Source: a virus (taxonomy: Duplodnaviria > Heunggongvirae > Uroviricota > Caudoviricetes). Taken from it: DNA of 11,389 bases. The notes beneath the pieces are model-generated. The model was not told where the DNA came from. It was given only the letters and a program-made list of their open reading frames with translations, and did no database searches. The position numbers and the translations under genes are program-made. Below are positions 1,704 to 11,389 of this stretch, one piece after another. Position 1 is the stretch's first letter; every line of letters begins with the position of its first letter. The stretch lies in IMG/VR virus record IMGVR_UViG_3300029167_000082; one strand, 5' to 3'.

Positions 1704-4145
1704 TCAATCATCACTCTGCCCGCTCTCCACACCGTAAGCGCGTGGCATGAACTCCTCAGCCTTCTCGTTATAGCCAACGTTGGTTTGCGCTCTGCCGTTA
1801 ATGCTTCTCGTCAGGTAGCTGGCTCGGTACTCTTTTGCTGCTGATTTTATGGCGCGTGAAAACTTATTGACGGAAAGCGGTTTACCCAAACCGTGATACT
1901 CCATAAACGCCAGATAAAGATGATAAAGATACGTCCTAGGCTCTGGCTGGCCTGCCCATGTACCTCCGCCCATCATCATGCCTTTGGGTTCGTTCATGAA
2001 AAAAAGTGCCGCACACATATCGATAACCGGATCTGTGCCGCGTTTAACGTCTAGCGCCTCCTGAGAATCGCGCTGCTCAAGTAATAGTGACTTTGCTTTG
2101 TTCTGGTCGGCAAAGGTGGTTAGCAGGTGGCGGATAATCACCGGGATTTCTCGCCTGATTTTTGCGGTTAAATCCGGGTCTTTGTCTGCGTCTGATACCG
2201 GGTTATTAAACGGGAATATCACGCGGCGGCGGGCAATGCCCCCGTTTCGCTCCGTGAATGTCATCGGCTCGTTATTGGTTGCCATAACAACGGCATTTAT
2301 CACGGTTGTGAACTGCTTTTCATATTTCCCATCAATCTCTACCGGATCGCCGCCCGTAATGGCTTTAATCCCCGCACCCTCTCCAACATAGCGGGTCTGG
2401 TCAGGCATAATAATCAGGCTTTTTCCTACGAACTGCGCCCGTCCCCGTGCGGTGTCCAGCGTCATCATGCTACCGCTGGCGGTGTTGTGTTCACCTGCCA
2501 GCGTGGTTGCTATGCTGCTGAATACGGATTTCCCACTACCGCCCTCGCCAGTTATCTCAATGAATAGCTGCCAGTCGTGACGCTTCGCCAGCACCATAAA
2601 CAAGGCTGCTTTGATACGCTCGGCCTTATGATGGTCGCCAGCCGTTGCATGATTCAGCCAACGGGTAAAATTGGGGGCGCTGGTGGTAATATTTTCCCCC
2701 GGCGCTGGCGGGGTGTAGGTGATCCCATTGTGGTTCATCAGCCAGTTACCCGGCGAATGGGCGGAAAACGTCTGCGTAGCGAGGTCATAAACGCCGTTAT
2801 CAAAACCAATCAGATCCCCGCTCCGCTCACCAATTACCGGTATTTGCAGCTTCATGGTTGCGACAACCGATTTAATCCCCTTTTCGGTGTAGTGGGCTTC
2901 GTGCTCGTCGAAAATTGCCACCATAACCCTTTCTAATTCGCTGTCTGGTAGCTTCACCCATACGCCAGATTCGTAGCAGTAAACAGTGCCACTATCAGGG
3001 TTAACCGCCAACATATCCCATCGAGATGAAAGCAACCGCGCTTTCTGGCTGGCTGCCATTTGTGCAATATCTCCGACATCGGCTTTACGGCGGGATTTAC
3101 CGCCCTCAATGGCTTGCAATCGCGGTTTCACGGCTTCCCCTTGAATCTGGTACATCGAATCGTTAAACGCAGCCGTAGCGACTTCCAGCCCGTTTTGCTG
3201 GCGGTAGTCGTCCCAGTCGGCTTTGTAGTCTGTCGGCGGCAGTGCCACCCAGCCAGCCACGGATAAGGCGGCTTTCTCTGCGGCATCTTTGCCCGTGTTC
3301 GCCTGTTCGTCCTGCTGGTGGTCGTTATCTGCGGCAATGATAATCTGCGTGGCTGGATATATCCGGCGCATCACTTCGGCAACGGGTAGCAGGTTGCCCG
3401 CGTCAATTGCTGCCACTGCCAGCGCGTCCGGGCGCATCAGGTGAACTGAAAGGGCCGTCGCCAGCCCCTCGGCAATTAAAACGCTCTGCGGCGATTCTGG
3501 CGCGTTTACGGCGTGATATGCCCCGCGCTTTGCTGAACCTGTCAGGAGTCGCTTCTCTCCCTGCGGTGTAATGGTTTGCGCTGCTGCCACTGCGCCGGAT
3601 TCGTCCACCAGCTCCAGCAATAACGAACCATCCGGCATAACCGGATAGTTAAACCCGGTCAGCCCTTTTGATTGCAGGTAATCAGATTCGCCCTGTGTGG
3701 CACTCTGGCGCATTCCGGCATACAGATGGGCAAACGTAGCCCTTCGCTGCTCTGCGTCATCTGCTGCCTGTTGCTGGCGCTCCTGCTCACGCTGCTGGCG
3801 GTCAGCTTCCAGTTGCTCCCTTCTCTGGCTCGCTGCCGCCGGGTCGGTTTGCGCTGCCCGGTAATCAATACCCAGCACATCAGCGGCAAGCTGTGCCGCC
3901 TCTGTGGTGTCGCAGTTGTTCACCTTCTTAATCAGGTCTAAGCCGTCGCCCGCGCCGCATTGGTTACAGATAAAGCTACCGCGACCGTTGTCGTCGAACC
4001 GGAAGCGATCCGTACCGCCACATGCAGGGCAGGGGGCATGACGGCGTGATGAATCAGGCACGTCGATAGACAGGCCAGCCAGCACATAAGGCCAGCGCCC
4101 TGCTGCGGCGCTGGTCACTTCGCGGATAAGGTCGATATTACGCAT
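1704..4145 (-). CDS. P4 alpha-type bifunctional DNA primase / helicase (zinc-binding N-terminus, TOPRIM primase, P-loop NTPase/helicase), about 813 aa
   Basis: ORF-track frame 1704..4178. N-terminal CPACGG...CNQCG zinc-finger-like motif; TOPRIM-like IAEGLATALS and IIAADNDHQ; Walker A GEGGSGKS. Start placed at ATG 4143..4145 (MRNIDLI) because AGGAGG lies 5 nt upstream; the alternative ATG at 4176..4178 lacks an RBS. Confidence 0.85.
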   Translation of the reverse strand: MRNIDLIREVTSAAAGRWPYVLAGLSIDVPDSSRRHAPCPACGGTDRFRFDDNGRGSFICNQCGAGDGLDLIKKVNNCDTTEAAQLAADVLGIDYRAAQTDPAAASQRREQLEADRQQREQERQQQAADDAEQRRATFAHLYAGMRQSATQGESDYLQSKGLTGFNYPVMPDGSLLLELVDESGAVAAAQTITPQGEKRLLTGSAKRGAYHAVNAPESPQSVLIAEGLATALSVHLMRPDALAVAAIDAGNLLPVAEVMRRIYPATQIIIAADNDHQQDEQANTGKDAAEKAALSVAGWVALPPTDYKADWDDYRQQNGLEVATAAFNDSMYQIQGEAVKPRLQAIEGGKSRRKADVGDIAQMAASQKARLLSSRWDMLAVNPDSGTVYCYESGVWVKLPDSELERVMVAIFDEHEAHYTEKGIKSVVATMKLQIPVIGERSGDLIGFDNGVYDLATQTFSAHSPGNWLMNHNGITYTPPAPGENITTSAPNFTRWLNHATAGDHHKAERIKAALFMVLAKRHDWQLFIEITGEGGSGKSVFSSIATTLAGEHNTASGSMMTLDTARGRAQFVGKSLIIMPDQTRYVGEGAGIKAITGGDPVEIDGKYEKQFTTVINAVVMATNNEPMTFTERNGGIARRRVIFPFNNPVSDADKDPDLTAKIRREIPVIIRHLLTTFADQNKAKSLLLEQRDSQEALDVKRGTDPVIDMCAALFFMNEPKGMMMGGGTWAGQPEPRTYLYHLYLAFMEYHGLGKPLSVNKFSRAIKSAAKEYRASYLTRSINGRAQTNVGYNEKAEEFMPRAYGVESGQSDD

Positions 4146-4479
4146 GGTTGCCTCCTGCCACGGTCGCGCCCATATCATTAATCATGCTTTGCCATATCTC
4201 GCGCCCGGTATCAGTCAGGCCACCAGCATTGACGCATTTCTCCAGCATGGTGATCCCGATGCTTTCCCACTGAGGGTATGTCTCTTTGAGTGCTTCGAGC
4301 GCGTAACCATCAATAAGTTGGCGCGTGCCACTGATACCGCCCACCAGTTCCACACGGATTTGCTGGCCTGCCGCGTCAACCATGAAGTAATTGCCACCAT
4401 TGATAGCCGTGATGTGGTTGTAAAGTGCCGCCGCGTACTGGTTCGCCAGCGCATTCAGTCGGAAGTTTTTGGTAATCAT
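4138..4479 (-). CDS. Hypothetical protein, 113 aa
   Basis: ORF-track ORF. GAGGGGG RBS 5 nt upstream of the ATG. Its 3' end overlaps the primase start by 8 nt. No motif recognised. Confidence 0.55.
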   Translation of the reverse strand: MITKNFRLNALANQYAAALYNHITAINGGNYFMVDAAGQQIRVELVGGISGTRQLIDGYALEALKETYPQWESIGITMLEKCVNAGGLTDTGREIWQSMINDMGATVAGGNHA

Positions 4480-5509: not shown

Positions 5510-5703
5510 CGCTTCCCCTCCCGTTCTGCCAATTCTTCAATCAGCCATGCGGTAACGTCACCGGAAAGGCGCTTTAGCGGAGTGGCGATTGCGGATACTT
5601 CGCTATCGGCAAGGTGATGGGGGAAGTCTTCAACCAGACGGGCAATTATTTCAGTCTGGTGCGCGCGTTCTGCGGCCTGCTCTAAGGTGAGTTCACGGCT
5701 CAT
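5506..5703 (-). CDS. Small hypothetical protein, 65 aa
   Basis: ORF-track ORF. GGAGGTGG RBS 5 nt upstream. ATGA overlap with the Icd-like gene stop. No motif recognised. Confidence 0.5.
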   Translation of the reverse strand: MSRELTLEQAAERAHQTEIIARLVEDFPHHLADSEVSAIATPLKRLSGDVTAWLIEELAEREGKR

Positions 5704-5888
5704 GCTGCCACCTCCAGACGGATGCGGCCTGCAAAGAAACAGACGTGATCTCGTGCCAGAGTTTGACGTGCTTCGCGCTCGCTTTCGGCAGCAACATGAT
5801 GGATTTTGGCGGTAATTGTCGGCATGTCGCGGCGAACGGCTGCGATTAACCAGATAAATTGTGGATTTTGGGTAGGGGTAGTAGCCAT
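5700..5888 (-). CDS. Small protein, 62 aa, possibly Icd-like (host cell division inhibitor family as annotated in P4-like islands)
   Basis: C-terminal 62 codons of ORF-track frame 5700..6578. Internal ATG at 5886..5888 (MATTPTQNPQF) is preceded by a strong AAGGAGG RBS. The Icd-like assignment is from recalled resemblance only and is not verified. Confidence 0.5.
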   Translation of the reverse strand: MATTPTQNPQFIWLIAAVRRDMPTITAKIHHVAAESEREARQTLARDHVCFFAGRIRLEVAA

Positions 5889-6077
5889 GATGGCAGCCTC
5901 CTTTGTGTTTAAGGAGTCACCGCCTGAGTTTCCACGCTCTGAAATGGCGGTGACGTTAGCAGGGGTGGAAATACCGGACACAAAGGAAACCGGCCTACGC
6001 GAACGTAGCCCCACTAACGCCACCATAGATACAGTACGGACGAGGCCGCTGATTTGATGTGCGTAGTGAACGGACAC

Positions 6078-6100
6078 AAAAAAAGACGCTTTCGGCGTCT
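6078..6100 (-). terminator. Rho-independent terminator inside the non-coding control region
   Basis: Minus-strand RNA reads AGACGC-CGAAA-GCGUCU followed by six U: stem 6084..6089 / 6095..6100, loop 6090..6094, A-run on plus at 6078..6083. Lies about 190 nt upstream of the Icd-like start. Confidence 0.6.
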
Positions 6101-6155
6101 GTGTCGCCCTGAGTGTGTTCGGGTTTCCACGCCCGGTTGCTGATTTTGCAGCAAC
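6078..6155 (-). ncRNA. Candidate ~75-80 nt small RNA (possible P4 CI / P1 c4-type immunity RNA analogue)
   Basis: Extended -10-like TGTTATAGT on the minus strand (hexamer at plus 6162..6167) about 7 nt upstream of a run that folds as hairpin 6136..6155 (GTTGCTG / CAGCAAC), hairpin 6120..6135 (CGGG-TTTCCACG-CCCG) and the terminator hairpin. Prediction by eye only. Confidence 0.3.
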
Positions 6156-6516
6156 ACTGGGACTATAACACTGATTTTCCTGCTGGTGGTCTGACCTGTA
6201 GGTACTGCCCTTTTTTACATAGTCCGAAAACTCCCCAGACGGGCGCGTAATGCTCCGAAAACTCAAGACAGCGGAATAATTTTCCACTGGCGTAGTGTTG
6301 TCAGAAAAAACTTTCTCGCGCGTACTGGTCACGAAATGCGAAAAAAACTTAGGATTTATTAGGATTCGCAGCCCAATTCTCAGCCCAGAAAACGCCTCTA
6401 AAATGTCGTCATTTGTCGCAACGGCGCGGCGATGAATGTCAGGTTTTGACAGGTTGTAAGGGTTAACATTTGCTAACAGGCCAGCCAGATTAAAGGCTTC
6501 TTTCTGGGCGGCAGGT

Positions 6517-6699
6517 TCATTCAGTATCACGGCGCACCTCCACGAACTCATTAACGAATCTCTCCAAAGGCTGAACACATGGCGACTGATAGCCCTCGCG
6601 GTAAAAGGTCACTCGGTTATGCTCGACGCGCTCAACGGTCACTACAGCCCCGTGAGAATCCTTGTAACGGCTTCCCGGCTGGGGGTTTTGGTTACGCAT
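6517..6699 (-). CDS. Small hypothetical protein, 60 aa
   Basis: ORF-track ORF. Its start overlaps the antirepressor stop by 8 nt, so it is the last gene of the alpA-led operon. No motif recognised. Confidence 0.5.
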   Translation of the reverse strand: MRNQNPQPGSRYKDSHGAVVTVERVEHNRVTFYREGYQSPCVQPLERFVNEFVEVRRDTE

Positions 6700-7525
6700 G
6701 GCTTACCCTCATACGCTTCGCCAGCCAGCGCTGAGACAGTCGTATTAATTCAGCTTTGCGCTGGTCGTAGTCCTGCCCCAGCTCAATTAGCGTGATATTG
6801 GTGCTTTCCAGATAGGAGAGGTGTTCAAGCTGTGCTGCGTTCATGCTGTCCCGTGGTTCGCCAGTAATGCCATTTGCCTGCGCCCACTGCTTTGCCGTCA
6901 TGCCACCCAGCACGATACGGGCGATCATGTTGCTCTCGTTGCTGTAGTGGCGCTGCTGCGTCGTTTTACCCAGCTCGGCACGGGCCATATTCAGCGCATC
7001 GCACATTGGCTTAAAGTTGTTTGCGGCACTGATACGGGCTTTTAGCTGGCGACGATAGCGGGCGGCGATTTCAGGCACGGTACGCTGTAATTCTTCCTCG
7101 CACTGGATGAAATAACGGCGGATAGCGCGACCCTGATCATTGCGTTCGATCATTGCCAGTTCTTTCGCCATTCCGACACTTAACAGATAGTCTTTGCCGG
7201 GTCTGCCAGAGTGCTTTATCTTGCTGTAAGCCGCGCCATTCGGGCTTTTCCCCAAATTTGGGGAAATTGTTTTATGGACTGAGTAATCGTGCCCAATGGT
7301 GAAGTCATATTCAGAGATGCGATCAGTGATCCATGTAGAGAAGTCTTTTCCCACGCCCAACGCTTTGTGTAACGCTTTTGCGCTAACAATATTGGTTTCA
7401 CGCCCACCGATATGACCAGGAATAACCGGGACAATTGCGGCAAATTCATTACCGTTAATTGTGCCCAGAGAGGCGTTCAGATGAGGGGCGGCCTCAGAAA
7501 TTAATCTGCTTTTTTCGATGTTCAT
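6692..7525 (-). CDS. Phage antirepressor-type protein (AntA / Bro-N-like N-terminus, KilAC-like C-terminus), 277 aa
   Basis: ORF-track ORF. N-terminal region (FAAIVPVIPGH...ETNIVSAKALHKALGVGKDFSTWITDRI) resembles antirepressor N-domains, and the C-terminal helical region resembles KilAC. GGAGAC RBS upstream. Confidence 0.65.
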   Translation of the reverse strand: MNIEKSRLISEAAPHLNASLGTINGNEFAAIVPVIPGHIGGRETNIVSAKALHKALGVGKDFSTWITDRISEYDFTIGHDYSVHKTISPNLGKSPNGAAYSKIKHSGRPGKDYLLSVGMAKELAMIERNDQGRAIRRYFIQCEEELQRTVPEIAARYRRQLKARISAANNFKPMCDALNMARAELGKTTQQRHYSNESNMIARIVLGGMTAKQWAQANGITGEPRDSMNAAQLEHLSYLESTNITLIELGQDYDQRKAELIRLSQRWLAKRMRVSHA

Positions 7526-7537
7526 TTTCAGTCTCCG

Positions 7538-7969
7538 TTAGGCGGCGTTAAACGCGTTCGGGTAGAGTTTCAGAATGTCGGCAATTTCCTGCTGAGAAAG
7601 TCCGTTGTGATCATTTATGTTCGCAAGATGGTTAACATGAGTGATCACTTTCAGAACATCACCACGGCAGGAGAAACGGTAGCGAAGGTGTGTTCCGATA
7701 CCATCAGGATTCTTTTCGTCGATACGCTCCAGAGTGATTCCAAGCTGGCGTTCTAACTCTGTTGCATAGTTACGACCAGAAGACAGACGGCAGTAGCGAA
7801 GAATGTCATTTTCTGTCCATCCCTCTATACCAGTACGCAGCATATAGACTCTGGCACGATGCTTTTTCGGTGTGCGCTTTGGTGCTTGAAGGGATTTTGT
7901 CAGGGGCGTAACATCAGATACGCGAATATCTGAATTAGCCGCCTGTAATGGGCGGTTTTTCTTTTCCAT
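7538..7969 (-). CDS. Hypothetical protein, 143 aa, translationally coupled to alpA
   Basis: ORF-track ORF. Start ATG 7967..7969 overlaps the alpA stop (ATGA). Basic N-terminus (KRTPKKHRAR); no motif recognised. Confidence 0.55.
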   Translation of the reverse strand: MEKKNRPLQAANSDIRVSDVTPLTKSLQAPKRTPKKHRARVYMLRTGIEGWTENDILRYCRLSSGRNYATELERQLGITLERIDEKNPDGIGTHLRYRFSCRGDVLKVITHVNHLANINDHNGLSQQEIADILKLYPNAFNAA

Positions 7970-8172
7970 CAGGCCACCTTCCCGCGGCGTTCTGCCAGCC
8001 AGTTGTGAATCTCAACCGCATCAAACGCAGTTATTTTTTCTCCCAGCTTTACCGGACGTGGTAGTGAACCGTTTCTTACTTTACGGTCGATGGTGGATAC
8101 ACTAACGCCCAGCAATTCAGCCAGGCGGAAGCGTCTGATATAGCCTTTTGTAGGAATAGTGTCGGTGTTCAT
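7969..8172 (-). CDS. alpA: AlpA-family phage transcriptional regulator / excisionase-like HTH protein, 67 aa
   Basis: Size and pattern match the AlpA family (RLAELLGVSVSTIDRKVRNGSLPRPVKLGEKITAFDAVEIHNWLAER). First gene of the operon after the orphan-gene terminator. Confidence 0.8.
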   Translation of the reverse strand: MNTDTIPTKGYIRRFRLAELLGVSVSTIDRKVRNGSLPRPVKLGEKITAFDAVEIHNWLAERRGKVA

Positions 8173-8216: not shown

Positions 8217-8240
8217 GGAAGTATCTGTACATATATGAAC

Positions 8241-8286: not shown

Positions 8287-9252
8287 CTACCCCTTACCGT
8301 TGGCGGCAGCACGTAAGTGTCTCAAAATCACATCTTCATTTGTGATTGCTAACGGTGGAATTTCGTCTTTATGAGCCACTATGCAATCCCGCCACTTCTC
8401 AGGGCTTATTTCTTTCTTTTTGCCACGGCATTCATCAGGATACTTTGACAAAAGATATATTGCAGATTTGAAAAGTTTTTCCCTGTTTTCAGCATGTCTC
8501 TCGGCATTATGGTTGCTATTTTTTATTTCAGGTATTAGTTCCTGTTCTACCGCCATTTCGTATCGTTTTTTGCTCTTAGCTGCGTCAAAACTTCCATTAA
8601 CCTTTGCGTCATGAAGGTATTCTAAATCAGCCTTTGTTATATAAATGTTTTTATCTGACAGGCTACTCAGGTGAATTTGGGAACTTTGCATTTTGAATTT
8701 ATATAGATCACAATCAAATGTTGCTTCAAGTCGCACATATGGTTCTCCACATTCTTGTGAATGATAATGTCGTGTTGTTCTACCGCGTACACGCAACAAT
8801 CCACATGCAATTGATTTTCTTACAATAAAAGAGTTTTTGCCAATTTGTTCAAAAACATTTTTATTGTCGCTGTCTTCAACTGTCAGTGGTTTATGTGCAT
8901 AAAATAGCTCATAAGCACCGCTTTCAGATGCTGGGATATAAACTTCGTTGCTTGCGCTGGTAATAAGAAAAGGAAATGTAAACCTTACTTCTTCTGGGTA
9001 CATAAGTAATAAATCAGTTATAAAATTAGCATCTTTTTTGAAGTGGATGGTGGCATCAGATTCAATGAAATCAAGAAAGTCAGCATAGACATAAAAGTCT
9101 ATATGTAGTCTATCTTTCCAATGCCATATATCATCAATTTCACAATTTAATAATTTTGATGCTCGCTCTATCGTGCAGTAGTCCAAAGGTGGAATACCTG
9201 ATTCCTGCCATAAATTTCTATGCACCACTGTTGTTTCATGAGAGTCGTTCAT
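8287..9252 (-). CDS. Hypothetical protein, 321 aa; AT-rich orphan gene in the integrase-adjacent slot
   Basis: ORF-track ORF. AAAGGTGA RBS 6 nt upstream. Hand-counted 60-nt samples give about 32-38% GC against about 53% in a primase sample. Own terminator downstream. No catalytic motif recognised by eye. Confidence 0.75.
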   Translation of the reverse strand: MNDSHETTVVHRNLWQESGIPPLDYCTIERASKLLNCEIDDIWHWKDRLHIDFYVYADFLDFIESDATIHFKKDANFITDLLLMYPEEVRFTFPFLITSASNEVYIPASESGAYELFYAHKPLTVEDSDNKNVFEQIGKNSFIVRKSIACGLLRVRGRTTRHYHSQECGEPYVRLEATFDCDLYKFKMQSSQIHLSSLSDKNIYITKADLEYLHDAKVNGSFDAAKSKKRYEMAVEQELIPEIKNSNHNAERHAENREKLFKSAIYLLSKYPDECRGKKKEISPEKWRDCIVAHKDEIPPLAITNEDVILRHLRAAANGKG

Positions 9253-9347
9253 TGCGTCACCTTTTACGCTGCGCCTTATTTTGTGATTGAGCCAGGCGGT
9301 AAGGCTTCCCGCTTTTCGCCCCGTCGAGCTAGGCTCAATCTATTCAG

Positions 9348-10607
9348 TTAGTTCGCCCTTCTGAGAGGCGTTACGTTGTAGTCTTTTCCGCTTTCCAGTG
9401 CCACCAGCAGATCAGCCCACTGTGCCAGTGCTGCTTTACGCTCATCAAAATACTGATGGCGGTTATAAATCCCCTCTACGCCCTTAATGCGATGATTGAG
9501 GCATCGTTCCGCCACGACAGGATCAACACCCAACGCTGCTAAATGAGTACGTGCGGTGCGTCGGAAGTCGTGAATCGTGAAATTAGGCACATCCGGCATT
9601 TCGGCGCGAACCTTAGCCAGTGCTACGGGCAAAGTGCTTTCCTGAATATGTGGGATCATTCTGTTTTGCATCTTCCTGGCTGGAAGCACCCATGCGCTAT
9701 TACATGAAAAGGTGTGTAGCTCTCTCAACCATTCAACGGCTGGGGAAGGTAGAGGTATATCAATAGGGTCTCCGTTTTTGCTGCGTTCTTCCGGCAAATG
9801 CCATACCGCACCATCTAAATCAAACTCTTCCCATCGTGCGGCGCATAACTCCATCTTACGAACGCATAGTGCCAGCAATAGCTTAAATGTCAGTTCGTTC
9901 TGGCGGCTGAATCCTTTTGCGGTGCGCATAGCCTCGAATAGCCTGATAAGCTCATCGCGAGTTAGCCAACGGTCGCGGGAAACCTCTTTACCACCAGCAT
10001 CAGATACTTCAAACGCTGAACAAGGGTTTATCTCCAGAGCGTGGCGTTTTATCCCGTAGTCAAAGATACGGCGTGTCCAGCGTAATACATCTGTTGCTAT
10101 CGTTGGTGCTCCTCGGTCAACGATACCTTTCAACATGTCGTCAATGTGGCGTGGCTTAACGTCCTCTACCTTCATATGCCCAATGCAGGGGTTAATATCC
10201 TTATCAATTCTCCGGCGAAGGATATCGGGATGTTTCCATCTCGGAAGTATCTGGCGCTCGAAGTATTCGGAGGCCAGATCTGAAACACGCATGGCGTTTT
10301 TCTCAGCCTCCATTTTTGCCAGTGCTTCAGCTTTTCGTTCCTGTTTCTCTGCTGCTACGTCATAGCCAAGAGCAACTCTGGCTGACAGCTCTTTTGCTGT
10401 TTCTCTGGCTTTTGATAGTGACAGTTCGGAGTAAGAGCCTATAACCATAGCCCGCTGCTTTCCTGCGAGCTTATAGCGGAATCGCCAGAACGGGGCTGTG
10501 TAGTTTTTGGGGTAGCAAATATAAAGGCCGTTGCCGTCTGCCTTGCCATCAAATCTGTCTCCCGCCTTTATCCATGCGCGGATCTGCATATCTGTGAGTT
10601 TTGGCAT
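9348..10607 (-). CDS. int: P4-family tyrosine recombinase / integrase, 419 aa
   Basis: ORF-track frame 9348..10691. N-terminus MPKLTD..I.AWIK....DGK.DGNGLYI...WRFRYK matches the P4-type arm-binding domain. C-terminal catalytic region has HDFRRTARTHLAALG and GIYNRHQY (candidate catalytic Tyr). Start chosen at ATG 10605..10607 by homology pattern; the upstream ATG at 10691 lacks an RBS. Confidence 0.9.
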   Translation of the reverse strand: MPKLTDMQIRAWIKAGDRFDGKADGNGLYICYPKNYTAPFWRFRYKLAGKQRAMVIGSYSELSLSKARETAKELSARVALGYDVAAEKQERKAEALAKMEAEKNAMRVSDLASEYFERQILPRWKHPDILRRRIDKDINPCIGHMKVEDVKPRHIDDMLKGIVDRGAPTIATDVLRWTRRIFDYGIKRHALEINPCSAFEVSDAGGKEVSRDRWLTRDELIRLFEAMRTAKGFSRQNELTFKLLLALCVRKMELCAARWEEFDLDGAVWHLPEERSKNGDPIDIPLPSPAVEWLRELHTFSCNSAWVLPARKMQNRMIPHIQESTLPVALAKVRAEMPDVPNFTIHDFRRTARTHLAALGVDPVVAERCLNHRIKGVEGIYNRHQYFDERKAALAQWADLLVALESGKDYNVTPLRRAN

Positions 10608-10635
10608 TGCGAATACCTGAATATCGAATATGGGT

Positions 10636-10688
10636 GTGTACATAAAGCAATGTACATGAAAGTCATTATGTACACCTCTATGTACACG
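10636..10688 (+). repeat. Four direct repeats of (A)TGTACA(T/C) upstream of int; candidate integrase arm-type or regulator binding sites
   Basis: TGTACAT at 10637 and 10651, TGTACAC at 10669 and 10681, all within about 50 bp between the int start and the yicC terminator. One more TGTACAT at 8226..8232 upstream of alpA. Confidence 0.45.
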
Positions 10689-10732
10689 CATATTGTGCGC
10701 TTTATTGCGTCGTTATGATAGCTCATGATAAC

Positions 10733-10769
10733 AAAAAAGCCCGACATTTCGCGGGCTTTGTGGTTTTTT
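10733..10769. terminator. Intrinsic terminator of yicC (bidirectional-looking hairpin)
   Basis: AGCCCG (10738..10743) / CGGGCT (10752..10757) stem with 8-nt loop, flanked by AAAAAA (10733..10738) on one side and TTTGTGGTTTTTT on the other; about 40 nt downstream of the yicC stop. Confidence 0.6.
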
Positions 10770-10795
10770 GCTGCTTGGTGATTTTTACTGATAGC

Positions 10796-11389
10796 TTATT
10801 CGATATTCTGAATCTGCTCGCGCATCTGCTCAATCAACACTTTCAGCTCAATCGCGGAGTTTGTCACTTCGGCATTGATAGACTTCGACGCAAGAGTGTT
10901 CGACTCGCGGTTGAACTCCTGCATCATAAAGTCCAGACGACGACCAACGGCTTCTTTTTTCTTCAGAATGTTGTACGTCTCTTTAACATGCGCTTCGAGG
11001 CGGTCCAGTTCTTCGGCAACGTCAATTCGTTGTGCCAGCAGAACCAACTCCTGCTCCAGACGGTTGTTTTCCAACTGAACCTGAGCATCTTCCAGCTTCG
11101 CGACCAAGCGTTCACGCTGCCATTGCAGGATTTCCGGCATATGGGAGCGGACTTTGACCACTTCGGCGGTGACGCCTTCCAGACGCTGCTCGATCAATGC
11201 TTTCAGTGCCTGACCTTCGGTTTCGCGCGCGACAATAAAGTCGTCCAGCGTACCATCCAGCGCCGCGAGAATTTCAGCGGCAATGGCGTCAAGATCCTGC
11301 TCCTGGGCTGCCATCACGCCCGGCCAGCGTAGAATATCAACCGGGTTGATTTCCCCTTCGTCCCTCTGCATTTTTACCCAGTTCGCGGC
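10796..11389 (-). CDS. yicC: C-terminal part of YicC-family protein (chromosomal gene, 5' end beyond the window)
   Basis: Minus-strand frame stays open to the window edge and ends ...IEQMREQIQNIE at the stop 10796..10798. Recognised from memory as the YicC C-terminus. The Met at 11371 in the ORF track is internal. Confidence 0.75.
   Translation of the reverse strand, partial: AANWVKMQRDEGEINPVDILRWPGVMAAQEQDLDAIAAEILAALDGTLDDFIVARETEGQALKALIEQRLEGVTAEVVKVRSHMPEILQWQRERLVAKLEDAQVQLENNRLEQELVLLAQRIDVAEELDRLEAHVKETYNILKKKEAVGRRLDFMMQEFNRESNTLASKSINAEVTNSAIELKVLIEQMREQIQNIE

What the first reader, a model, noticed from the sequence alone, without database searches (positions are those of the whole stretch)
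10608..10795. Island junction at the yicC terminator rather than at a tRNA, with TGTACA repeats in the int leader
P4-family integrases usually sit next to a tRNA or tmRNA gene. I see no tRNA-like sequence here; instead the int 5' region runs into the intrinsic terminator of yicC about 125 bp away. The four TGTACA(T/C) direct repeats at 10637..10687 are in the position expected for arm-type integrase binding sites of an attL/attR. This suggests an intergenic or terminator-proximal attachment site.
Basis: partly seen in the sequence, partly recalled or inferred. Interest (0 to 1): 0.45.

Follow-up and report, generated by a model that had tools for sequence, protein, structure and literature searches.

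The report
Phage-satellite attachment arm at yicC's end
This is the integrase-side end of a known type of E. coli phage satellite (PICI) that inserts into the last codons of the host gene yicC rather than next to a tRNA, bringing its own terminator and a set of likely integrase-binding repeats: real, but ordinary and already described.

Summary
Four TGTACA(T/C) repeats sit at 10637-10687, a hairpin plus T-run at 10736-10759, and no tRNA is present.

- **Junction position.** Alignment against 5,426 E. coli genomes, two excised (attP) forms and far-end junctions puts the recombination core at TGAATCTG, 10809-10816. That is inside the yicC coding sequence, not at the terminator or in intergenic DNA.
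- **The "yicC terminator".** The hairpin is island DNA. The island also supplies the last 13 nt of yicC, including the stop codon (10796-10808). The native yicC terminator ends up at the far, dinD-side end of the island.
- **The TGTACA repeats.** They are very likely arm-type sites of the integrase. The integrase has an Arm-DNA-bind_3 domain. Four sites lie on this arm and two on the other arm. The sites are conserved in 37 loci, and the motif changes (GTGCAC, GTAGCT) in distant integrase clades that still sit behind yicC.
- **Already known.** The site is published: PICI EcCIRM13514 has att core GAGCAGATTCAA at yicC-dinD (Fillol-Salom 2018, Table S1). Other island families also use the 3' end of yicC.

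Interest is low.

The parts
9348..10607 (-). int: heterobivalent tyrosine integrase, 419 aa
   Evidence: Pfam finds Arm-DNA-bind_3 at residues 4-90, Phage_int_M at 110-198 and Phage_integrase at 213-385. It is 89.7% identical in amino acids to the Int of PICI EcCIRM13514.
10634..10644 (-). Arm-type site 4 (nearest int), TATGTACACAC on the minus strand
   Evidence: The GTAC core is near-invariant in 37 aligned loci.
10648..10658 (-). Arm-type site 3, CATGTACATTG
   Evidence: This is the least conserved site, lost in roughly a quarter of the 37 loci.
10666..10676 (-). Arm-type site 2, GGTGTACATAA
   Evidence: Near-invariant in 37 loci. The site 1-2 pair recurs at the other end of the island.
10678..10687 (-). 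Arm-type site 1, GTGTACATAG
10696..10732 (-). Four repeats of ..ATCA/..CGCA spaced exactly 10 bp apart (10725-32, 10715-22, 10706-12, 10696-702). Candidate binding sites for the recombination directionality factor (AlpA); this is an inference.
   Evidence: Coordinates. The columns are conserved in the 37-locus alignment. Equivalent phased repeats with other sequences occur in Aeromonas and Steroidobacteraceae.
10727..10759 (-). Island-borne intrinsic terminator (hairpin 10759-10736 plus T-run). It replaces the native yicC terminator and shields int from yicC read-through.
   Evidence: It is absent from island-free genomes. A hairpin plus T-run is present in all 37 relatives, with many different stem sequences.
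10769..10795 (-). Three further 10-bp-phased repeats (GCTATCAG, AAATCAC, AGCAGCA) between the core and the terminator
10796..10808 (-). Island-supplied replacement of the yicC 3' end (G AAT ATC GAA TAA on the coding strand)
   Evidence: The attP forms L097 and L103 carry this yicC mimic. The A at 10805 occurs in only 1 of about 4,192 empty sites. The L003-type variant TTACTCCACATTTT is found in no empty site.
10809..10816 (.). Recombination core / crossover region: TGAATCTG on the plus strand, CAGATTCA on the yicC strand
   Evidence: This is the only block shared by attB, the int-side junction, four far-end junctions and attP L097; L103 shares the inner 7 nt, AGATTCA. It lies within the published core GAGCAGATTCAA of EcCIRM13514.
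10796..11389 (-). yicC (YicC/YloC endoribonuclease), C-terminal 197 codons; the target gene
   Evidence: Annotation in identical RefSeq genomes. It matches 5,425 of 5,426 E. coli genomes.
7969..8172 (-). alpA-family gene, the probable excision activator / directionality factor of the island
   Evidence: Pfam Phage_AlpA, E = 2e-8. In the PICI EcCIMP1, alpA is required for excision (PMC11773190).

Best explanation
Window 10608-10816 is the integrase-proximal (P) arm plus core of the attachment site of a PICI-type phage satellite. [quoted passage not shown] The satellite's attP carries a copy of the last ~21 nt of yicC. Strand exchange occurs in the 7-8 bp CAGATTCA, about 13 nt before the end of the stop codon. 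After integration, yicC therefore ends in island-supplied codons (10796-10808) and is terminated by an island-supplied hairpin terminator (10736-10759). The displaced native 3' end and native terminator are left at the dinD side. Between the terminator and int lie four (G/T)GTACA(C/T) sites; two more lie on the other arm. These are bound by the N-terminal arm-binding domain of Int to assemble the recombination complex. The seven 10-bp-phased ATCA/CGCA repeats flanking the terminator are probably sites for the AlpA-type directionality factor. Because the arm sites fill the only space available for an int promoter, Int probably also represses its own gene. Shown here: the position of the junction, the attP structure, the conservation and motif switching of the repeats, and the domain content of Int. 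Inferred: who binds which repeat, the exact cleavage positions, and autoregulation.
For: 1. Island-free genomes align only from 10796 onward. 476 of 5,426 genomes carry the int-yicC junction.
2. In ECONIH4, which is 99.97-100% identical to the window, the native terminator and downstream DNA of K-12 are found 15 kb away next to dinD.
3. Two viral contigs show the excised form: P' arm, then ACTCAATAAACAGATTCAGAACATCGAGTAA, then P arm, then int.
4. The alignment of attB, attP and both junction types shares only CAGATTCA.
5. The O157 island L003 supplies a different yicC end (..QNVE*) that no empty site has.
6. Two island-free genomes keep the mutated far-end copy joined to yicC exactly at the core, as expected after excision.
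7. Int has Arm-DNA-bind_3.
8. Sites 1, 2 and 4 are near-invariant in 37 loci from Enterobacterales, Aeromonas, Tolumonas, Zobellella, Vogesella and Rhodocyclaceae. The motif becomes GTGCAC x3-4 in Azonexus and GTAGCT x3-4 in Steroidobacteraceae, where Int is 41-47% identical, while the layout is kept.
9. The far arm has a matching site pair.
10. Published: EcCIRM13514 core GAGCAGATTCAA at yicC-dinD, and PICIs integrate into yicC.
Against: 1. There is no binding, cleavage or excision experiment.
2. The window does not contain the far end, so the second core copy is seen only in identical or related genomes.
3. The far-end copies are not exact chromosomal sequence: 2-12 nt are missing next to the core. 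This needs a secondary explanation (decay or imprecise events).
4. The published core of the Citrobacter element CfCIP10159 is ATCGAGTAAG, at the stop codon, and does not overlap CAGATTCA. Another group noted this 'attB drift', so the crossover position may differ between sub-clades.
5. No sigma-70 promoter was detected for int, so autoregulation is conjecture.
Confidence: 0.8

Rival explanations
1. One reading: the junction lies in intergenic DNA at or next to the native yicC terminator, about 10736-10795.
For: A good terminator hairpin lies 37-60 nt after the yicC stop, where a native one would be expected.
Against: The hairpin and everything to 10795 are absent from about 4,950 island-free genomes. 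K-12 has a different terminator, and that terminator reappears at the far end of the island. The hairpin travels with the integrase in 37 loci of many genera, and with a sister integrase clade at another gene, der.
Confidence: 0.02
2. The crossover is at the yicC stop codon (TTATTC, 10796-10801), as in the published C. freundii core ATCGAGTAAG. On this view no yicC codons are supplied by the island.
For: Homology of the window to empty sites begins exactly at 10796. The CfCIP10159 core spans the stop codon. Far-end copies TTAYTCAAT.. differ from the chromosomal TTATTCGAT.. and so could be island-derived.
Against: It requires recipient yicC alleles that do not exist in about 4,190 empty sites: TTACTCCACATTTT has a best match of 95.2%, and the A at 10805 occurs in 1 genome. 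The scar-bearing empty sites of 13E0780 and 13E0725 cannot arise from a crossover at the stop codon. The attP forms carry the full yicC mimic through CAGATTCA.
Confidence: 0.1
3. The TGTACA repeats are operator or promoter elements for another regulator (AlpA, a repressor or a host factor), not Int arm-type sites.
For: They lie where the int promoter must be. AlpA-family proteins bind repeated sites. A fifth TGTACA lies upstream of alpA at 8226.
Against: A matching pair sits on the far arm, about 65 nt from the core and far from any int promoter. The motif changes together with Int divergence. Int carries a dedicated arm-binding domain. A separate set of 10-bp-phased repeats is a better candidate for the directionality factor.
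Confidence: 0.12

Closest known systems
PICI EcCIRM13514 (E. coli O145:H28 RM13514), att core GAGCAGATTCAA at yicC-dinD (Fillol-Salom et al. 2018, ISME J, Table S1; PMC6092414)
   Same: Same insertion locus and the same core. Int is 89.7% identical in amino acids. The P arm is the same, with a hairpin and four TGTACA sites, and the far arm has two sites.
   Different: Outside int the DNA is unrelated at the nucleotide level: only window 9352-11389 aligns, at 84%. The primase, accessory genes and yicC-end allele (..QNVE* versus ..QNIE*) all differ.
KplE1 (CPS-53) IntS/TorI attL (Panis et al. 2010, PMC2951348)
   Same: Same layout: target gene, then a ~200-nt att arm, then int on the same strand, so the int promoter must overlap the arm-type and directionality-factor sites. 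In KplE1 this gives negative autoregulation.
   Different: KplE1 targets a tRNA gene (argW). Binding and regulation were shown experimentally there and are only inferred here.
Lambda-type attP (arm-type sites on both arms, Xis/IHF sites between arm sites and core, 7-bp overlap)
   Same: Heterobivalent Int, repeats on both arms, a short identity core and phased repeats between the arm sites and the core.
   Different: Here the arm carries a transcription terminator and a replacement 3' end for a protein-coding target gene.
Elements that replace the 3' end of a protein gene (phage 21/e14 at icd; SGI1 at trmE; MGIVmi1, GISpuPO1 and GI21 at yicC; PMC4207636, PMC8978831)
   Same: Integration into the 3' end of a conserved protein gene, with the gene kept intact. 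yicC itself is a recurrent target across Gammaproteobacteria.
   Different: MGIVmi1 and the Shewanella islands are mobilizable islands of other families. Whether their integrases belong to this clade was not tested.

Membership tests
Heterobivalent tyrosine integrase with complex att site (lambda/P4-type) | C-terminal tyrosine-recombinase catalytic domain | tested here: met
   PF00589 at residues 213-385, E = 7e-17. The box motifs VRKMEL, HDFRR, LNH and IYNRHQY are readable in the translation.
Heterobivalent tyrosine integrase with complex att site (lambda/P4-type) | N-terminal arm-type DNA-binding domain | tested here: met
   PF13356 Arm-DNA-bind_3 at residues 4-90, E = 7e-20. PDB relatives 3ju0, 3jtz and 3rmp match the same stretch.
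Heterobivalent tyrosine integrase with complex att site (lambda/P4-type) | Repeated arm-type sites on both arms of attP, distinct from the core | tested here: met
   Four sites at 10634-10687. Two sites lie on the far arm in L001, L003, L085, RM13514 and in attP L097 and L103.
Heterobivalent tyrosine integrase with complex att site (lambda/P4-type) | Int protein binds the arm sites and cleaves at a 6-8 bp overlap | not testable with these tools
   Needs EMSA or footprinting and suicide-substrate mapping.
Gram-negative PICI (Fillol-Salom 2018) | int at one end, with alpA and pri-rep downstream, all transcribed in one direction | tested here: met
   int at 9348-10607, alpA at 7969-8172 and a primase-helicase at 1704-4178, all on the minus strand.
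Gram-negative PICI (Fillol-Salom 2018) | Size about 8-15 kb with no phage structural or lysis genes | tested here: met
   The island is about 13.5 kb (15.3 kb in ECONIH4 minus a 1.76-kb IS). No structural or lysis family appears among the ORFs scanned or in the RefSeq annotation.
Gram-negative PICI (Fillol-Salom 2018) | Induction by a helper phage and packaging into phage particles | not testable with these tools
   Indirect only: related elements occur as circularly permuted contigs in a viral contig collection.
yicC-dinD attC class (EcCIRM13514 type) | Located between yicC and dinD, with the core CAGATTCA repeated at both ends | tested here: met
   Window 10809-10816 plus the far-end copy in the identical ECONIH4 island. 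The far end is outside the window.
Satellite phage P4 proper | Integration next to a tRNA gene, and the sid/psu/delta capsid-size module | tested here: not met
   No tRNA. No Psu, Sid or Delta family among the scanned ORFs or in the RefSeq annotation of the whole island. A P4-family primase and a C4-type RNA are present.

The most novel reading that the evidence does not exclude
The att arm may be more than a docking site. It rewrites the end of a host endoribonuclease gene (new last codons, new terminator). Cycles of integration and excision may also leave heritable edits in yicC. Small deletions recur immediately next to the core in the displaced copies. Two island-free strains carry such a scar, and it shortens YicC to ..QIQH*. 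A G-to-A change there creates the new stop codon, which looks compensatory. In addition, the switch of arm motif (GTACAC, GTGCAC, GTAGCT) along with Int divergence, while the target stays the same, would give a natural read-out of the recognition code of the Arm-DNA-bind_3 domain.
Probability: 0.3. Interest if true: 0.35.

Novelty: already known. Interest (0 to 1): 0.15.

Why it matters
It matters little beyond correct annotation. Anyone annotating these genomes should know four things:
- The last 13 nt of yicC and its apparent terminator belong to the satellite in about 9% of complete E. coli genomes.
- The site is a protein-gene 3' end and not intergenic.
- The same integrase clade uses yicC from Enterobacterales to Betaproteobacteria.
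- Some published 'att cores' of related PICIs may be arm-site pairs rather than crossover sites.

The conserved arm architecture is a ready template for finding such satellites and for testing Int and AlpA binding.

Tried and rejected
1. RNAalifold on the aligned hairpins returned no structure, because the stems are in different registers. I replaced it with single-sequence folds, which all give a hairpin plus T-run.
2. The promoter scan of 10300-11000 found nothing, so the int promoter remains unlocated.
3. A crossover at the stop codon was considered seriously and rejected.
4. The yicC mention in the Citrobacter rodentium prophage paper was only a knockout strain.
5. EcCIMP1 turned out to sit at tRNA-Thr, not at yicC.
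6. L087 is rearranged and L004 lacks dinD, so neither gave a usable far-end junction.
7. PADLOC and PHROGs gave no function for the ORFs between int and the primase.
8. Most viral contigs start at int and therefore hold no attP. Only L097 and L103 do.

Full report
**1. The observation**

- TGTACA occurs five times in the window. Four copies are at 10637, 10651, 10669 and 10681, against 1.76 expected for the whole 11.4 kb. With flanks they read RTGTACAY.
- A hairpin of 8 pairs followed by a T-run lies at 10759-10736 on the minus strand, which carries both yicC and int.
- The int ORF most plausibly starts at the ATG at 10607 (MPKLTDMQ...). This matches the RefSeq annotation of an identical genome.
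- ARAGORN finds no tRNA or tmRNA. Rfam finds none at E<=1 over the window, or at E<=10 with lax filters on 10560-10860.

**2. Where the junction is**

A 990-nt query across the region matches 5,425 of 5,426 complete E. coli genomes. Only 476 of them contain the int side. In the others the match begins exactly at window 10796, the yicC stop codon. So 10608-10795, hairpin included, is island DNA.

In K-12 the 220 nt between yicC and dinD contains a different terminator. In strain ECONIH4 the island is 99.97-100% identical to the window, apart from a 1.76-kb IS. There the K-12 sequence and its terminator lie about 15 kb away, next to dinD. The window starts about 2.7 kb inside the island, so the far end is not in it.

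**3. The core**

Two contigs of a viral collection show the excised, circularly permuted form. Upstream of int they run through the same arm, then ACAGATTCAGAACATCGAGTAA (a mimic of the last codons of yicC), then directly into the far arm.

I aligned K-12 attB, the window junction, four far-end junctions (ECONIH4, an O157:H7 strain, 2016C-3878, RM13514) and the two attP forms. The only block common to all is CAGATTCA on the yicC strand; one attP has AGATTCA. This block is window 10809-10816, TGAATCTG.

Three further results place the exchange there rather than at the stop codon.
- **The O157 island.** It gives yicC a different end (..QNVE*, TTACTCCACATTTT). No empty site among about 4,190 has that end; the best match is 95.2%.
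- **The A at 10805.** This synonymous AAT occurs in one of about 4,192 empty sites. MG1655 and the rest have G.
- **Scarred empty sites.** Two island-free cattle strains have an empty site in which the mutated far-end copy (TTATTCAATGTT, two bases short) is joined to yicC exactly at GAATCTG. This gives an 858-nt yicC ending QIQH*. Excision at the core would produce exactly this.

So the island supplies 10796-10808 (G AAT ATC GAA TAA) as well as the terminator.

**4. The arm is a conserved machine**

A scan of one genome per species with the Int protein returned 80 loci. In 53 of them yicC ends about 170-360 nt upstream of int on the same strand. These span Enterobacterales, Aeromonas, Tolumonas, Zobellella, Vogesella, Azonexus, Propionivibrio and Steroidobacteraceae, with Int identity down to 41%.

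An alignment of 37 arms shows the following order:
- the yicC end;
- three repeats ending in TCA or GCA, 10 bp apart;
- a hairpin plus T-run;
- four more 10-bp-phased repeats (TATCA, TATCA, ACGCA, GCGCA);
- four (G/T)GTAC(A/C)(C/T) sites.

Sites 1, 2 and 4 are nearly invariant. Site 3 is lost in roughly a quarter of the loci. All 37 hairpins fold, and their stems differ (GCCCGC, GCCTGC, ACCCGT, GCCGCG, GCCACG and others), so the structure is maintained rather than the sequence.

In Azonexus the repeated word is GTGCAC. In Steroidobacteraceae it is GTAGCT, which is not palindromic and is directly repeated. The layout is unchanged in both. The far arm carries a pair (CGTGTACACAAGGGTGTACC) in the same orientation, about 65 nt from the core.

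Int has an Arm-DNA-bind_3 domain at residues 4-90. Taken together this is strong comparative evidence that the TGTACA repeats are arm-type Int sites. It is not a binding experiment.

**5. How it most likely works**

Shown:
- attP holds a yicC 3' mimic.
- Recombination in CAGATTCA leaves yicC intact but ending in island codons and an island terminator.
- Arm repeats lie on both sides of the core.

Inferred from lambda and KplE1:
- The Int N-domains bridge the arm sites to the core.
- The phased ATCA/CGCA repeats bind the AlpA-type directionality factor. The island's alpA is at 7969-8172, and alpA is required for excision of PICI EcCIMP1.
- The terminator stops yicC transcription from running into int, which follows on the same strand.
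- Because the arm sites occupy the only room for a promoter, Int probably represses itself, as shown for KplE1 IntS (PMC2951348). The consensus scan found no promoter, so this last step is the weakest.

**6. Relation to what is known**

- Fillol-Salom et al. 2018 (Table S1) list PICI EcCIRM13514 at yicC-dinD with att core GAGCAGATTCAA, and CfCIP10159 of Citrobacter freundii at yicC-yicG with core ATCGAGTAAG.
- The RM13514 Int is 89.7% identical to the window's Int, and its arm has the same four sites.
- A preprint from another group notes that reference PICIs integrate into yicC and that their identity blocks 'drift' so far that they do not overlap. That fits the two published cores.
- O157:H7 genomics papers list 'yicC_dinD' as an integration site.
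- MGIVmi1 of Vibrio and several Shewanella and Pseudoalteromonas islands also use the 3' end of yicC.

The element in the window has the PICI hallmarks: int, alpA and primase-helicase in one direction, about 13.5 kb, and no structural genes. It is not P4: there is no tRNA site and no sid/psu/delta.

More distant relatives of this integrase (28-32% identity) do sit about 190-250 nt after tRNA genes. A sister clade (about 63% identity) has the same arm, terminator included, directly after the stop codon of der/engA.

**7. Verdict**

What this analysis adds is detail:
- the exact core in window coordinates;
- island ownership of the yicC end and terminator;
- the 4+2 arm-site layout and its motif switching;
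- the breadth of the yicC-targeting clade.

Interest is low.

Noticed in passing
window 5943-6168 (-): Rfam finds a C4 antisense RNA (5943-6030, 81 bits), isrK (6079-6155, 72 bits) and the c4 a1/b1 target element (6116-6168, 55 bits), all above gathering score. They lie inside or next to the Ash/Icd-like ORF 5700-6578 and downstream of an AntA antirepressor gene (6692-7525). This looks like a P1/P7-type antisense immunity module on a satellite.
   Followed up: no
window 9273-9339 (-): An int-alpA RNA motif (RF02996, 60.6 bits versus gathering score 35.8) lies 9 nt after the int stop codon. Its function is unknown in the literature as far as I know.
   Followed up: no
window 8287-9252 (-): A 321-aa ORF between int and alpA has no Pfam or PHROG family. 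Its only PADLOC hit is weak (PDC-S31, E = 0.002). The gene at this position differs in size in related islands (651, 846 and 951 nt in L003, L004 and L086). It may be a variable accessory or defence slot.
   Followed up: partly
window 8235-8240: The otherwise identical island of strain ECONIH4 has a 1.76-kb IS1634-family element (ISSpu7) inserted here. The two BLAST segments overlap by 6 nt, consistent with a target-site duplication.
   Followed up: partly
L139 1229-1250 (E. coli 13E0780; also 13E0725): This is an island-free yicC-dinD site carrying the mutated 'displaced' copy (cgagTTATTCAATGTTGAATCTGCTC). yicC is 858 nt and ends QIQH*. The 2-nt loss alone would extend the ORF by many codons. 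The G-to-A change creates the TGA stop, which looks like a compensatory fix after excision.
   Followed up: partly
far-end and tandem junctions: L001 5114, L003 2085, L085 19993, L140 ~13000, L063 ~2790: Copies of the yicC-like block that are no longer coding all lack 2-12 nt immediately next to CAGATTCA. The recurrence at one spot suggests imprecise events at the crossover rather than random decay.
   Followed up: partly
L037 2700-3000 (Klebsiella michiganensis), L066 (Kosakonia oryziphila): A sister integrase clade (about 58-63% identity) has the same arm (GCTATCAG.., hairpin, phased repeats, GTGTAC sites), but directly after the stop codon of der/engA (TIGR03594, E = 2e-178). The arm is modular and only the core has changed.
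   Followed up: partly
L030, L043, L063 about 2700-3000: Chromosomal contigs of Rahnella, Serratia and Erwinia show attP-like joints (far arm, yicC-like block, int arm). L063 lies a few kb from L047 on the same contig. This suggests tandem arrays of yicC-targeting islands.
   Followed up: no
L086 18946-20945: Strain 600029 has two dinD genes side by side. The second lies just inside the far end of the island, so some islands of this family carry a dinD paralogue.
   Followed up: no
PMC6092414 Table S1 (literature, not the window): Several published 'att site cores' of other PICIs are tandem words, for example TTTGTAGTTATACGTTTGTAGTTATACGG and CGGTGTAGTTAATGGTGTAGTTAATT. They resemble the paired arm-type sites seen here on both arms, and may be arm sites rather than crossover cores.
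   Followed up: no
window 8226-8231: The only other TGTACA in the window lies in the 115-nt gap upstream of alpA. It could be chance or a further Int site.
   Followed up: no
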